IMG/VR virus record: IMGVR_UViG_3300027733_000032
Strand: one strand, 5' to 3'
DNA from: a virus
Length of the DNA stretch: 64,000 bases
Part shown: in pieces, positions 1-34,845 of the stretch
Position numbering within the stretch: the first letter of the stretch is position 1
How the letters are laid out: each line of letters begins with the position of its first letter
Program-made: the position numbers and the translations under genes
Notes under the pieces: generated by a model
The model's input: only the letters and a program-made list of their open reading frames with translations
What the model was told of the DNA's origin: nothing
Databases searched by the model: none

Positions 1-151
1 ATGCACTTAATTTCTGCAACCAAGTCAGAGTCATAGGGAAACTCCGCAACGATGATGTCATCAACCAAAGTGAGAGTACTTGCCTCATCCCCTTTGTCAT
101 CACCCAACCGCTTCTTCATGCCACTCATCCTAGCCCCGCCCATACGACCCG

Positions 152-355
152 TCAACTATCAAGAGCATCATCAGCAAAGTCTCGCAACCGTGGATACGCC
201 CAACGAACAGCGAACACCAATCCGACGAGGAAGGCGACTCCCCAGTTCACGAAGCCCGAGGCAAACCCAAGCACTCCGAAAATAATCTGACTGGTCGGCA
301 AAAATAATCCCAGCAGGATGGCTACGAACAGTTTATGTTTCTTGATGAGTTCCAT
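152..355 (-). CDS. small membrane protein
   Basis: Leaderless ATG 6 nt after class A promoter; two hydrophobic segments. Confidence 0.75.
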   Translation of the reverse strand: MELIKKHKLFVAILLGLFLPTSQIIFGVLGFASGFVNWGVAFLVGLVFAVRWAYPRLRDFADDALDS

Positions 356-742
356 ACCTTAGTATCGGTAACAGTATTACGCTAGTTGTCAGATAGTTTA
401 TCCACAGGCTGAGAAGTAGACCCTACATTTACACGAAGGCACAAACATATCAAAATGATATAGATGTGACGCTTATAAGGTATAAGGGGTAAGAGTCCCG
501 ATAAATCTACCCTCAACAAATGACGGTGGTGGAAAGCAACTTGCTGATAGGAGATTCGCCCTCCCCTTCGTGCTCGCAATGGAAAAGCGCATACATCTAG
601 AAGCGAAACGACTAGATGCTGAAAGGGAGGGAGGATGGAGCCATTTGAAAGGGCAAACCGTGGCATCTCCCACCATCCTTACGAAGAAGGCGAAACATTT
701 CTTCCTCAATGGAAAGAACGGGGCTCACCAGCATAGAGACAA

Positions 743-958
743 TCACACAGAGAGAGGGCGACTCGCAAGAGAACCAAGGAACTCATTGCCATCCATCTCC
801 ATCAACGCCCAGTAAGCATCTTTGTAAGAAGGGAACACTGATTCAAAGACAACTTCACCCGTGGCTTTATTCTCCAGCGTCCCCAGAACCTCAGAGCCCC
901 GCACAGGAGCGATACGAATCAGATAGACAAGTCCATTGAGGAGCGGTTGATGTTTCAT
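743..958 (-). CDS. hypothetical protein
   Basis: ORF track; same strand as neighbours. Confidence 0.55.
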   Translation of the reverse strand: MKHQPLLNGLVYLIRIAPVRGSEVLGTLENKATGEVVFESVFPSYKDAYWALMEMDGNEFLGSLASRPLSV

Positions 959-1040
959 GTCCGCACCCTACCCACAAAGCCGTTGAGAAGCAAGTACCGA
1001 ATCTCCGGGGCTGACTCGCTCCCCTATCCAGCCCGAACCG

Positions 1041-1247
1041 TCACACTGCCCCTTCGTACTCACGGGAGTGGAGTGTCTTGCCCGCATAGCGGAGGTCGTA
1101 GGCGAACGAGATGAGCCACGAACCGATGTCATCAAAGGGGTACTCACGAGTGAACTCAAAGGCTCCACAGGCTTTACCGTCGGTCACGACAGCCGTGACA
1201 GAGATGATGTTGGTTTCTAGATTGACTGAGTAGGTGAGGTTGTTCAT
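1041..1247 (-). CDS. hypothetical protein
   Basis: Leaderless ATG after class A promoter. Confidence 0.75.
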   Translation of the reverse strand: MNNLTYSVNLETNIISVTAVVTDGKACGAFEFTREYPFDDIGSWLISFAYDLRYAGKTLHSREYEGAV

Positions 1248-1352
1248 ACTTAGGTATCGGAACAGCCGTTACCTTAGTTGGGCGAATGTTTATCCACAGG
1301 TTGTGAATAAAGTATGAGACAACTACCGTAATACTCCTACCGATATATAGAC

Positions 1353-1547
1353 ATGAGCCACTCCACCTACACCCCCTCCCCCCTGTGCGATGCCTGTAGT
1401 CTCCACGAGCCAACCATGGACTGGTACGACCATGACGAGTTCTTTTGGAACCTGTGCGACGAGTGCTTCACCCGTGACGCTCTCATGGGGGGCGAATGCA
1501 CCTCAGCCTGCGACGGGGACTACGCCTGTGCCCACAACTCCCACTAG
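1353..1547 (+). CDS. Cys/His-rich putative Zn-binding protein
   Basis: Leaderless ATG after divergent class A promoter; CDAC, CDEC and further Cys/His. Confidence 0.75.
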   Translation: MSHSTYTPSPLCDACSLHEPTMDWYDHDEFFWNLCDECFTRDALMGGECTSACDGDYACAHNSH

Positions 1548-1770
1548 TGGGCGACCACTCTGAGTGAGAAAACCACCGAGAGTGAGAGTCCCGCATCCCA
1601 CTAACACGCTTAGATAAATCTATCTGAGTGATATTGGGGGTCGTAGGGGGCTAAAAGAGCGACAAAACTCCGAAATATTTGAAAATGCCGAGAATTCGCA
1701 AGTATTTCGTCCCCTATCAGGTCTTTTGCTGCGAACGCAGAGCGTGATTCTTCACCACTCTCCGTGAGGT

Positions 1771-2031
1771 CTAAAGGTGTATAGCACCCATTTCCTCAGG
1801 TGTGCTTTCCGACGGGGCTCGGCTTACCTTGATTTCCCATAGGGATAGCCAGCCATTCCATCCCTTCCCATTAACCCCTTTCAAGAGGATTTGGTCAGCA
1901 CGGTTCTTGTTCGGCACATAGACGAAGCGAGGTCCATGTTCTTTCACTCGGTTGCGGGTTCTCTTAGATGCGGTAGCCCCGTTTATTGAGACGAGGACTT
2001 CGGTTGGTTCGGTGATGTCGCTCAGGCTCAC
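1771..2031 (-). CDS. hypothetical protein
   Basis: Overlap-coupled ORF in minus-strand operon. Confidence 0.6.
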   Translation of the reverse strand: MSLSDITEPTEVLVSINGATASKRTRNRVKEHGPRFVYVPNKNRADQILLKGVNGKGWNGWLSLWEIKVSRAPSESTPEEMGAIHL

Positions 2032-2267
2032 TAGTTCACTTCTCCTACTCTGATACTTTCGTTATCCCTTGTCATACCCTTCATCAGCATCATGTACTTG
2101 CTTGACCACGATAACGGGACTACCCGTGAGTGTTGCTTGTCGTCATAGCCCGTCCATGTAATACGGAACTTGATTTGCTCTTCGTCTTGTATGTCGTTCT
2201 CCATAGTGATGTCTTTCTGTCTCTTGTAGGTATTAGAGAGTTTGCCAACACTGGAGTTGATATCCAT
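2031..2267 (-). CDS. hypothetical protein
   Basis: ORF track; operon context; start may be downstream. Confidence 0.6.
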   Translation of the reverse strand: MDINSSVGKLSNTYKRQKDITMENDIQDEEQIKFRITWTGYDDKQHSRVVPLSWSSKYMMLMKGMTRDNESIRVGEVN

Positions 2268-33588: not shown

Positions 33589-33614
33589 TTCTTGCCTTCC
33601 CTATAAGGTAAGTG

Positions 33615-33670
33615 GAGAGTAGTCCTCTAGTCATTGGTGGTCAGTGACTTGAGTGGCTACTCTCTTTTGT
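33615..33670 (+). terminator. hairpin terminator ending the early region
   Basis: GAGAGTAGTC...GGCTACTCTC followed by TTTT. Confidence 0.7.
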
Positions 33671-33679
33671 ATATATCAA

Positions 33680-33980
33680 GTGAGTAAGTAGTGGCGTGTA
33701 TGTAATGAGTGAGTGATATGTGATGATGATGATATAGGTAGGTAGGTAGGTAGGTAGGTAGGTAGGTAGGTAGGTAGGTAGTAGTGATGTATGTATGTAT
33801 GTGTTAGATGAGTAGTGGTAGTAGTAGTAGTGGTAGTACCCATAGCAATACCCGTAGGCACTTTTTTTACTAATGATGAAACGATGATGAGAACGAAGTG
33901 ATGATGGGGTAATGATGATGTACCTATATGTATACGAGTATGAGGGTATAGGGGTATAGGGGTAGGGGTATAGGGGTACT
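33680..33980 (+). repeat. C-poor microsatellites and G4-like tract
   Basis: (TAGG) ~11.5 copies at 33735-33780; (GAT)n, (TATG)n, (GTA)n; five G-runs at 33944-33976. Confidence 0.9.
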
Positions 33981-33984
33981 ACTT

Positions 33985-34210
33985 ATATACCCGTGATATA
34001 CCCGTGAGCATTGCGACGACTCAATGACTTAGCGATGACGACTTAGTGATGACGACTCAATGACTTGACTGTCAATGATGGTAATGATGACGAGTCAATG
34101 ATGATGACGATATGACGATGACTCAATGCTATTGACGATGACTCAATGACGATGACGATGATGTGATGCTTTGTAATACTTTGTGATACTCAGTAATACT
34201 TTGTGATACC
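33985..34210 (+). repeat. iteron-like direct repeats
   Basis: ATATACCCGTGA x2; GAYGA(C/G)TCAATG x5 (34015-34148); GTAATACTTTGTGATAC x2 (34173, 34193). Confidence 0.75.
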
Positions 34211-34281
34211 TGATAATGAATGTGATGATGAATGGGGCAACGCTGTCAATGTGTACGACATATGTAATGCCGTGTCTTGCT

Positions 34282-34561
34282 TGTGGATAAGGTGTGGATA
34301 AGGGTGTGGATAAACTTTTTTGTCATCCTCTACGACTGTCTATCTTAGGATAAGCAAGGGTTATACACAGGTTTATCAACAGGTATGTGGATAAGTAAGG
34401 GTTATCAACAGGTTGATTAAGGTGGTTATCAACAGGGTTATCAACAGGGTTGGGGATAAAGTAGGGTAAAAAGGGGTTATCAACAAGGGTGTGTATAAAG
34501 TCGGGGCTTCGTCCACATCCGTAGGCACTTATCCACAGGGTTATCAACAGACTTATCCACA
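34282..34561. promoter_or_regulatory. dense DnaA-box cluster, putative replication origin or DnaA sink
   Basis: 6 TTATCCACA, 2 TTATACACA, 6 TTATCAACA, 1 TTATCCCCA in 280 bp, many spaced 11-12 bp. Confidence 0.8.
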
Positions 34562-34638
34562 GAACATATGTTCGGGGAACAGGTGTTCGTACTTTGGAAG
34601 GTCAAAAGCGAACAGGTGTTCGTGCGAACAAGTGTTCG
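34561..34638. promoter_or_regulatory. four tandem LexA/SOS-like boxes
   Basis: AGAACATATGTTCG 34561, GGAACAGGTGTTCG 34576, CGAACAGGTGTTCG 34609, CGAACAAGTGTTCG 34625; matches the GAAC-N4-GTTC box of Gram-positive/actinobacterial LexA. Confidence 0.7.
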
Positions 34639-34845
34639 TATCCATGACCCCAGAAGCCCCGAACTTTTTGAGAATATAGATATTGGCTGGGCGGGCATAC
34701 AAACTATTTTTAATGTCGGCTTACTCTGGATAGATTTATCCAAACGGGGTGGGGGCAGCATCTTCTATGTTCTTCAACCTTTGACGGTGGTGGAAAGCAA
34801 TTCGCTCGAAGCGTCTCGACACGTGCTTGCTCCGTAATGGGAGTA

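What the first reader, a model, noticed from the sequence alone, without database searches (positions are those of the whole stretch)
1..34800. Sharp boundary in 4-bp palindrome avoidance, as in a first-entering DNA segment
Seen: left of ~34.8 kb GGCC, TCGA, CCGG, TGCA, ACGT and CGCG are nearly absent. A 660-nt sample at 25981-26640 had no GGCC, TCGA, CCGG, TGCA, GATC or AGCT, against ~15 expected. The few exceptions I saw lie mostly in the tRNA, RNA hairpins or the CGGGGCT motif. From 34805 onward these words are common. GATC and AGCT looked rare on both sides in the stretches I read. Known: T5 transfers DNA in two steps, with a restriction-site-poor first segment ending at a repeat-rich injection-stop region. 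Inference: the left part enters first, unprotected, and the 33.6-34.8 kb hub may be the pause signal.
Basis: partly seen in the sequence, partly recalled or inferred. Interest (0 to 1): 0.8.

Follow-up and report, generated by a model that had tools for sequence, protein, structure and literature searches.

The report
Restriction-site-free early island in actinophage
A 35-kb block of about 100 small early-type genes in an uncultured freshwater actinobacterial phage has lost nearly every short palindrome that restriction enzymes cut. The loss stops within about 100 bases at each edge, and dozens of related phages have the same island, so it probably marks the DNA that must work before the phage has disarmed host restriction.

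Summary
In window 15-34,798:
- ACGT, GGCC, TCGA, CGCG, TGCA and CCGG occur 1-6 times against about 100-185 expected.
- AATT, TTAA, CATG and GCGC are partly depleted, as are GGWCC, CCWGG, GCWGC, GAWTC and most 6-bp palindromes.
- CTAG and GTAC are at expectation.
- GATC and AGCT are absent from all 64 kb.

Codon and amino-acid bias does not explain this. The right edge lies at 34,632-34,798. A second sharp edge lies at window 9-158, so this is an island, not a half-genome. Independent assemblies span both edges.

New here:
- The same step sits just after the same gene pair in 36 of 57 testable related phage contigs.
- Four complete 151-170 kb relatives each hold exactly one 28-34 kb island.
- The purged words differ between lineages.
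- T5 and T7, the textbook staged-entry phages, show no such regional depletion.

My best reading is purifying selection against restriction sites in the DNA exposed before anti-restriction functions act, most likely because it enters first. Entry order, genome ends and the "pause signal" role of the hub remain unproven: distant relatives keep the step without DnaA boxes.

This scan has noted the same pattern before in related genomes (for example e1-5739397).

The parts
1..158 (.). Far (left) edge of the island. Palindromes at positions 2, 7, 9 and 15 are the last of the flank. Two alternative flanks diverge exactly at window position 1.
   Evidence: Flank type A (L005, L008) carries small genes, WhiB, a primase-helicase and SSB. 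Flank type B (L009, G001) carries a SNF2 helicase and a DUF932 protein. Four contigs and the window's own piece end at this base.
15..34798 (.). Palindrome-purged island of about 34.8 kb, GC about 50% against about 44% to its right. It holds about 90-100 small ORFs, nearly all without known relatives.
   Evidence: PHROGs and Pfam searches of 30 ORFs gave almost no annotation.
118..25100 (-). Left arm: genes on the minus strand, transcribed away from the divergence point. The part at 1-17.3 kb is slightly leaky: it holds 22 of the island's 23 copies of the six near-absent palindromes that contain G and C (ACGT, GGCC, TCGA, CGCG, TGCA, CCGG).
25131..33588 (+). Right arm: plus-strand genes ending in an AAA_5 ATPase (31,355-32,101) and a 496-aa protein with an HExxH motif and a VWA-type DxSGS motif (32,098-33,588). 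This gene pair precedes the step in all relatives.
3276..3349 (-). tRNA-Arg(TCT). It carries one of the five TCGA left in the island.
33590..34798 (.). Non-coding hub, still free of the purged palindromes. It contains a C-poor short-repeat tract (33,640-34,300), 14 DnaA-type boxes (34,282-34,561) and 4 GAAC-N4-GTTC LexA-type boxes (34,562-34,637).
34783..34797 (+). Copy of the one-strand motif GACGGTGGYGGAAAG lying exactly at the step. Other copies start at 522, 4589, 8321, 12871, 16893, 22121, 25131, 35496, 36474 and 37203, all on the plus strand.
   Evidence: The same one-strand array straddles the step in G002-G005, with 0-2 copies elsewhere in those genomes. The copies inside the island lack the TCGA and TGCA that two of the three copies beyond the step carry.
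34799..64000 (.). Site-permissive DNA. All palindromes are near expectation except GATC and AGCT, which are zero. Contents: an HA+HTH regulator (35,060-35,440, minus strand), a piece resembling a replication initiator (37,093-37,506), TauD, a Macro domain protein, a 1661-aa protein with a head-morphogenesis-like region and HTH domains, WhiB, VanY, and 1151-aa and 614-aa proteins.

Best explanation
The island is the phage's early gene region, meaning the DNA that must stay intact and be expressed before the phage has neutralised host restriction. Purifying selection keeps it free of the short words that Type II-like restriction enzymes of the host population cut. The rest of the genome needs to avoid only the few sites that the phage's protection does not cover (GATC and AGCT here).

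The most likely reason for base-sharp edges is that the genome is delivered in stages. The island would be exposed naked in the cell first, and the remainder would become accessible only after island-encoded functions act.

Shown: the depletion, its specificity, both edges, and its conservation at one syntenic position across a clade. Inferred: that restriction is the selective agent, that the island is expressed early, and that entry is staged. Which edge is a genome end, and whether the hub stops or starts entry, is open.
For: 1. Depletion is confined to palindromic restriction-type words. It is far below Markov and codon-shuffle expectation in both coding and non-coding DNA, while CTAG and GTAC are untouched.
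2. Both edges are sharp and are spanned by independent assemblies.
3. In 36 of 57 testable IMG/VR relatives, down to about 40% identity of the marker protein, the best change point falls 0-1.6 kb after the same gene, with 2-6 times fewer palindromes on the island side. Relatives at 56% and 45% identity taken from other assemblies show the same.
4. Complete relatives G002-G005 (151-170 kb) each have exactly one island of 28-34 kb.
5. The purged set varies by lineage around a core, as expected from differing host restriction repertoires. CGCG is purged in 31/31, GGCC in 28, ACGT in 27, TCGA in 26 and TTAA in 26. AGCT and TCGA switch between island-only and genome-wide avoidance. GTAC is never purged.
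6. Repeated-motif copies inside the island lack the TCGA and TGCA present in copies outside it.
7. The contents look like an early region: about 100 small ORFs without known relatives, and 27 DnaA-box sites and 50 CGGGGCT sites found almost only here.
8. No DNA methyltransferase of the three main families occurs in five complete or near-complete relatives, so self-methylation does not obviously protect the rest.
9. The principle is established by experiment elsewhere: EcoRI sites in T5 first-step DNA (discussed in bioRxiv 10.1101/866236) and Type I motifs in the leading region of Murciavirus (PMC12455610).
Against: - No direct evidence of entry order, genome ends or timing of expression, because only contigs were available.
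- The genuine staged-entry phages T5 and T7 show no regional palindrome depletion, so staged entry does not by itself produce such an island.
- Genes in the island run in both directions, unlike a T7-type transcription-pulled leading region.
- The four complete relatives assemble as three circles (121-127 nt end overlaps checked in two of them) and one linear contig, so fixed ends are not demonstrated.
- The host and its restriction enzymes are unknown.
- No known anti-restriction gene was recognised among 30 island ORFs.
Confidence: 0.55

Rival explanations
1. The whole genome enters at once. Only the early region has to stay uncut long enough to be transcribed. Elsewhere, breaks are either tolerated and repaired once early proteins act, or the DNA is shielded by proteins injected with it from the capsid. 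The island would then mark DNA critical for early expression, not DNA that enters first.
For: The same genome encodes very large putative capsid-cargo proteins (earlier notes e1-5857675 and e1-5857687, untested here). The window has a 1661-aa protein with a head-morphogenesis-like region and several HTH DNA-binding domains. CATG is avoided only at 16.9-28.2 kb, around the divergence point, which fits a gradient centred on transcription rather than on entry. In G004 and G005 the zone where all sites are purged lies nested inside a larger zone where only some are.
Against: A double-strand cut anywhere in an injected linear genome is normally lethal. Base-sharp edges shared by 10 or more different words are easier to explain by a physical boundary than by a gradient of importance. 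No shielding protein has been identified.
Confidence: 0.2
2. The purge avoids the phage's own enzymes, not the host's. Either the island must stay free of phage-made DNA modifications so that host RNA polymerase and DnaA can read it, or the phage makes nucleases against these words to destroy host DNA while only the island is present.
For: Oxygenase and glycosyltransferase genes and a weak DUF1599 'nucleotide modification' hit lie to the right of the step. The scan proposed comparable readings for other phages (e1-5669965, e1-5750267). Genome-wide loss of GATC and AGCT would fit a phage-encoded nuclease.
Against: Twelve or more different words would need as many enzymes. No PF01555, PF00145 or PF02086 methyltransferase and no DpnII- or MutH-type nuclease was found in five complete or near-complete relatives. 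The DUF1599 hit is below Pfam's cut-off.
Confidence: 0.1
3. The 33.6-34.8 kb hub is a replication origin and regulatory region, not an injection-stop signal. Its position at the step only reflects the border between the early and replication gene modules.
For: The hub has 14 DnaA-type boxes with 11-12 bp phasing, iteron-like repeats and 4 LexA-type boxes. GC skew is strong there. A piece resembling a replication initiator lies 2.3 kb downstream. DnaA boxes occur across the whole island, not only in the hub. G004 and G005 keep a sharp step with no DnaA boxes.
Against: T5-like phages carry paired DnaA boxes, 3 bp apart, in their injection-stop region, and a DnaA-tethering stop model has been proposed for them (bioRxiv 10.1101/866236). 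The two roles do not exclude each other.
Confidence: 0.45
4. The pattern is an artefact: a chimeric assembly, or a recently acquired foreign segment with a different composition.
For: GC is 50% in the island against 44% to its right. Contigs often break at both edges.
Against: Several independent contigs span each edge. The step is conserved at one syntenic position across relatives with only about 40% protein identity. The depletion is word-specific rather than compositional.
Confidence: 0.02

Closest known systems
First-step-transfer (pre-early) DNA of phage T5 and its injection-stop region
   Same: Both have a block of small early genes in two diverging arms that ends in a non-coding, repeat-rich region with DnaA boxes in pairs 3 bp apart. 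In T5, restriction sites matter only inside this block (EcoRI; discussed in bioRxiv 10.1101/866236).
   Different: The block here is 35 kb against 8-10 kb. T5's block shows no broad 4- or 6-bp palindrome depletion. There are no A1 or A2 homologues. A terminal position, a terminal repeat and two-step entry are not shown here. The host is an actinobacterium.
Motif-free leading region of Autographiviridae (Murciavirus, T7-type entry; PMC12455610)
   Same: Sensitivity to restriction is decided by sites in the first-injected early region, so sites elsewhere are tolerated.
   Different: That case concerns one Type I motif in a few kb of co-oriented genes. Here at least 12 four-base words plus 5- and 6-mers are purged over 35 kb of bidirectional genes. 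T7 itself shows no regional palindrome depletion.
Genome-wide restriction-site (palindrome) avoidance in phages
   Same: The same kind of selection. GATC and AGCT are absent from the whole window, and ATAT and TTAA are absent from all 129 kb of the distant relative DSL-LC01.
   Different: Classical avoidance is genome-wide and usually partial. Here most of it is confined to one island with base-sharp edges.
Leading region of conjugative plasmids (PMC11541004; bioRxiv 10.1101/2025.04.03.647016)
   Same: The first-entering DNA carries early anti-defence functions, and composition differs from the rest (higher GC).
   Different: Plasmid leading regions enter single-stranded and show weak or no systematic target depletion, and no 4-bp signal.

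Membership tests
T5-type two-step DNA transfer | The segment lies at a physical genome end, inside a long direct terminal repeat. | not testable with these tools
   Only Logan contigs were served, no raw reads. K-mer depth of island contigs is 1.3-1.5 times that of contigs at 34.5-38 kb in four runs. That is not the 2-fold expected of a repeat, and it is confounded by mixed strains.
T5-type two-step DNA transfer | A non-coding injection-stop region with repeats and paired DnaA boxes at the inner end of the segment. | tested here: inconclusive
   Present in the window and in L030. Absent from G004 and G005, which keep the sharp step. DnaA boxes also occur all over the island.
T5-type two-step DNA transfer | A1 and A2 proteins, which are required for the second step. 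| tested here: not met
   tblastn of T5 A1, A2, dmp and gene 011 against the window and G001-G005 gave nothing below E = 0.4.
T5-type two-step DNA transfer | Pre-early genes in two diverging arms. | tested here: met
   Minus-strand genes run up to about 25.1 kb and plus-strand genes from 25.1 to 33.6 kb.
Restriction-site avoidance by selection | Under-representation beyond oligonucleotide and codon bias. | tested here: met
   Markov z-scores of -12 to -19. Codon shuffle predicts 64-141 copies against 0-3 observed.
Restriction-site avoidance by selection | Specificity for restriction-type words, with non-target palindromes unaffected. | tested here: met
   The 12 lowest 4-mers are all palindromes. 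CTAG and GTAC are at expectation, and GAWTC is purged while GASTC is not. The purged set varies by lineage.
Restriction-site avoidance by selection | The purged words match the restriction specificities of the host. | not testable with these tools
   The host is unknown. WhiB genes and lake metagenomes point to freshwater Actinobacteria.
T7/Murciavirus-type leading region | Genes co-oriented with entry, starting at a genome end. | tested here: not met
   The island is bidirectional. Genome ends are unknown.

The most novel reading that the evidence does not exclude
A large clade of 150-170 kb freshwater actinophages delivers or exposes its genome through a defined checkpoint, so that about 20% of the chromosome faces host nucleases first. 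The base-sharp island edges, the nested inner and outer boundaries for different site classes, and the one-strand GACGGTGGYGGAA motif array that straddles the step would then be sequence read-outs of that staged process and of the order in which host restriction systems are neutralised. This mechanism would not be homologous to T5, T7 or phi29. If so, infection dynamics and the host restriction landscape of uncultured phages could be inferred from sequence alone.
Probability: 0.3. Interest if true: 0.9.

Novelty: new variant of a known kind. Interest (0 to 1): 0.75.

Why it matters
Restriction has been shown to matter only in the first-exposed part of a phage genome for single motifs in T5 and in T7-like phages. 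I found no report of a whole 30-35 kb region purged of most 4-6 bp palindromes, with edges sharp to within about 100 bases, conserved across a clade.

If the reading holds:
- The island is a sequence-only marker of the DNA that acts before protection is in place, which is where anti-defence genes should be sought. About 100 unknown genes lie here.
- The list of purged, never-purged and genome-wide-purged words reports the restriction enzymes that uncultured freshwater Actinobacteria deploy.
- The sharp edges give exact coordinates at which to test staged genome entry in a Gram-positive host.

It also shows that whole-genome averages of site avoidance can hide very strong local selection.

Tried and rejected
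- No whole genome is held for the window, so the rest of the source contig (at least about 170 kb, judging from earlier notes) could not be scanned for a second copy of the island.
- Megablast of 30-40 kb against the phage collection found nothing. An exact junction pattern in IMG/VR found nothing.
- Two exact-protein look-ups failed because the start codons differ.
ENA contigs cannot be reached through handles.
- All 24 sequencing runs are kept as contigs. No read-start pile-ups were obtainable, and the 1.3-1.5-fold depth ratio is uninformative about a terminal repeat.
- The DSL-LC01 large terminase found no match in the relatives. The relatives' own large terminase is nearest to those of Gordonia phages and psiM2, which does not settle the packaging mode.
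- No T5 A1 or A2 homologues.
- No methyltransferases and no DpnII- or MutH-type nucleases in the relatives.
- PHROGs and Pfam on 30 island ORFs gave no anti-restriction annotation.
- Literature searches found no earlier description of such an island and nothing linking DUF4314, DUF3846 or DUF1281 to leading regions.
- Codon bias, GC bias and a chimeric assembly were considered and rejected.
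Full report
**What is there**

The window is part of an uncultured phage found in freshwater lake metagenomes. WhiB genes point to an actinobacterial host. From window position about 15 to 34,798 the DNA is almost free of most short palindromes.
- ACGT occurs 1 time, GGCC 1, CGCG 4, TCGA 5, TGCA 6 and CCGG 6, where second-order Markov models expect 100-184 each.
- AATT (18 observed, 90 expected), TTAA (25/62), CATG (62/180) and GCGC (49/102) are partly depleted.
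- The twelve most under-represented 4-mers are all palindromes.
- The 5-mers GGWCC, CCWGG, GCWGC and GAWTC are purged, and 48 of the 64 6-bp palindromes are absent or nearly so. The density of 6-bp palindromes is 2.5 per kb in the island and 11.9 per kb to its right.
- CTAG and GTAC are at expectation. ATAT and TATA are only mildly low.
- GATC and AGCT are absent from the whole 64 kb.

**Not bias, not an artefact**

I shuffled synonymous codons among 87 island ORFs, keeping the proteins and the codon usage. That predicts 64-141 copies of each purged word, against 0-3 observed, and it reproduces the observed CTAG and GTAC counts. The 7.5 kb of non-coding island DNA is equally clean. Contigs from separate samples and assemblers span the 34.8-kb step (L012-L014; four runs including two viromes).

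**Two edges**

The right change point is 34,709, with support 34,632-34,798. Rates are 1.87 and 27.8 sites per kb, and the log-likelihood ratio is 444. The longest site-free intervals of eleven different words all end between 34,755 and 35,322.

Contigs that extend beyond window position 1 show a second sharp edge at about position 15. Two alternative flanks diverge at exactly that base:
- Type A has a primase-helicase, SSB and WhiB.
- Type B has a SNF2 helicase and a DUF932 protein.

This explains why four contigs and the window's own piece break there. So this is an island of 34.8 kb, not a "left part".

**Anatomy**

- The island holds about 90-100 small ORFs, nearly all without known relatives. 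They run on the minus strand from about 25.1 kb leftward and on the plus strand from 25.1 to 33.6 kb.
- The plus-strand arm ends with an AAA_5 ATPase and a 496-aa protein with HExxH and VWA-type motifs.
- A 1.2-kb non-coding hub follows. It has a C-poor repeat tract, 14 DnaA-type boxes and 4 LexA-type boxes.
- Perfect DnaA boxes (27 outside the hub) and CGGGGCT (52 of 53 copies) are confined to the island and hub.
- A 15-nt motif, GACGGTGGYGGAAAG, occurs 11 times, always on the plus strand. Seven copies lie in the island at spacings of 3.0-5.2 kb, one lies exactly at the step, and three lie just beyond it. The island copies lack the TCGA and TGCA that two of the three copies beyond the step carry, a small direct sign of the purge.

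**Conservation**

- A relative about 89% identical (G001) has the same island and the same left edge.
- Relatives whose marker protein is 56% and 45% identical show the same step just after that gene.
- Of 57 testable IMG/VR loci, 36 have their best change point 0-1.6 kb after the gene's end, with 2-6 times fewer palindromes on the island side. The step is base-sharp in every locus inspected.
- Four complete relatives of 151-170 kb each have exactly one island of 28-34 kb. In G004 and G005 an inner zone next to the step is purged of all sites. An outer zone is purged only of the AT-type words, CCWGG and GGWCC, and has its own sharp far edge.
- The one-strand motif array straddles the step in these genomes, with 0-2 copies elsewhere.
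- Across 31 lineages the island-only purge always includes CGCG and usually GGCC, ACGT, TCGA and TTAA. GATC is absent genome-wide in 28. AGCT and TCGA switch between island-only and genome-wide avoidance. GTAC is never avoided.
- A more distant phage, DSL-LC01, has no island but lacks ATAT and TTAA entirely.

**Interpretation**

The purge is word-specific and varies by lineage, yet its position is conserved. That is what selection by restriction enzymes would give, acting on a region that is vulnerable in a way the rest of the genome is not.

The region looks like an early region. The principle that only first-exposed DNA must lack sites has experimental precedent in T5 (discussed in bioRxiv 10.1101/866236) and in Murciavirus (PMC12455610). 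The island's layout mirrors T5's first-step DNA: two diverging arms, then a non-coding repeat region with DnaA boxes paired 3 bp apart. Five complete or near-complete relatives encode none of the three main DNA methyltransferase families. Protection of the rest of the genome by self-methylation is therefore not apparent.

I therefore favour staged exposure, most simply staged entry, but this is inference. Cautions:
- T5 and T7 themselves show no regional palindrome depletion.
- There are no A1 or A2 homologues.
- DnaA boxes are island-wide here and missing at the step of G004 and G005, so they do not define it.
- Termini, terminal repeats and the timing of expression could not be examined.
- The hub may simply be an origin, since a piece resembling a replication initiator lies 2.3 kb downstream.

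**Novelty**

Literature searches found region-limited avoidance only for single motifs, and a weak or absent signal in plasmid leading regions. This scan has already noted the same pattern in related genomes, so the present window is one member of a clade-wide phenomenon.

Noticed in passing
window 522, 4589, 8321, 12871, 16893, 22121, 25131, 34783, 35496, 36474, 37203 (all + strand): The 15-nt motif GACGGTGGYGGAAAG, often preceded by GCAAC-N5, occurs 11 times on one strand only, whatever the gene orientation. The same one-strand array straddles the island's hub-side edge in G002-G005, with 0-2 copies elsewhere. Some copies supply a TTGACG -35-like hexamer: at 12871 it is followed after 17 nt by TAAAGT and then by an ATG at 12906. 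It may be a class of promoters or a directional DNA signal.
   Followed up: partly
window 8967-9317 (-): A 116-aa miniature potassium-channel-like protein (Pfam Ion_trans_2, E = 4e-11; phrog_14690) sits among the early island genes. It is reminiscent of the Kcv channels of chlorella viruses. It could depolarise the host early in infection.
   Followed up: no
window 398-30765 and 34282-34561: There are 33 perfect TTATCCACA DnaA boxes (0.5 expected), all inside the island or hub and none to the right of 34.6 kb. Many are in pairs 12 nt start to start, that is 3 bp apart, as in the T5 injection-stop region.
   Followed up: partly
L027-L029 (Actinomycetia phage DSL-LC01, OQ999401, 129 kb): This distant relative has no island, but ATAT and TTAA are completely absent from all 129 kb and AATT and TATA are rare. 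This is a different, genome-wide avoidance set.
   Followed up: partly
window 12849-13099; G005 38.3-38.9 kb: Small clusters of 'forbidden' palindromes lie inside the islands. In the window, 7 sites fall within 250 bp around a plus-strand ORF at 12906-13196. They look like recently inserted cassettes that have not yet been purged.
   Followed up: no
window position 1 (L005, L008 against L009, G001): Identical island sequence is joined to two unrelated left flanks in different lake samples, and the break point lies about 40 codons into a minus-strand gene. In one version that gene ends after 49 aa. In the other it is a 669-aa SNF2 helicase.
   Followed up: partly
window 34562-34637; L030 12.3-12.42 kb: Four GAAC-N4-GTTC (Gram-positive LexA-type) boxes lie in tandem between the DnaA-box cluster and the step. 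They are written without the flanking TCGA of the actinobacterial consensus (the consensus is from my own knowledge).
   Followed up: no
window 38-44 kb; L012 10.6-19 kb: Right of about 38.1 kb, related strains carry different genes (for example an 857-aa pentapeptide-repeat protein instead of TauD and its neighbours), and contig depth halves there. This is a strain-variable region.
   Followed up: no
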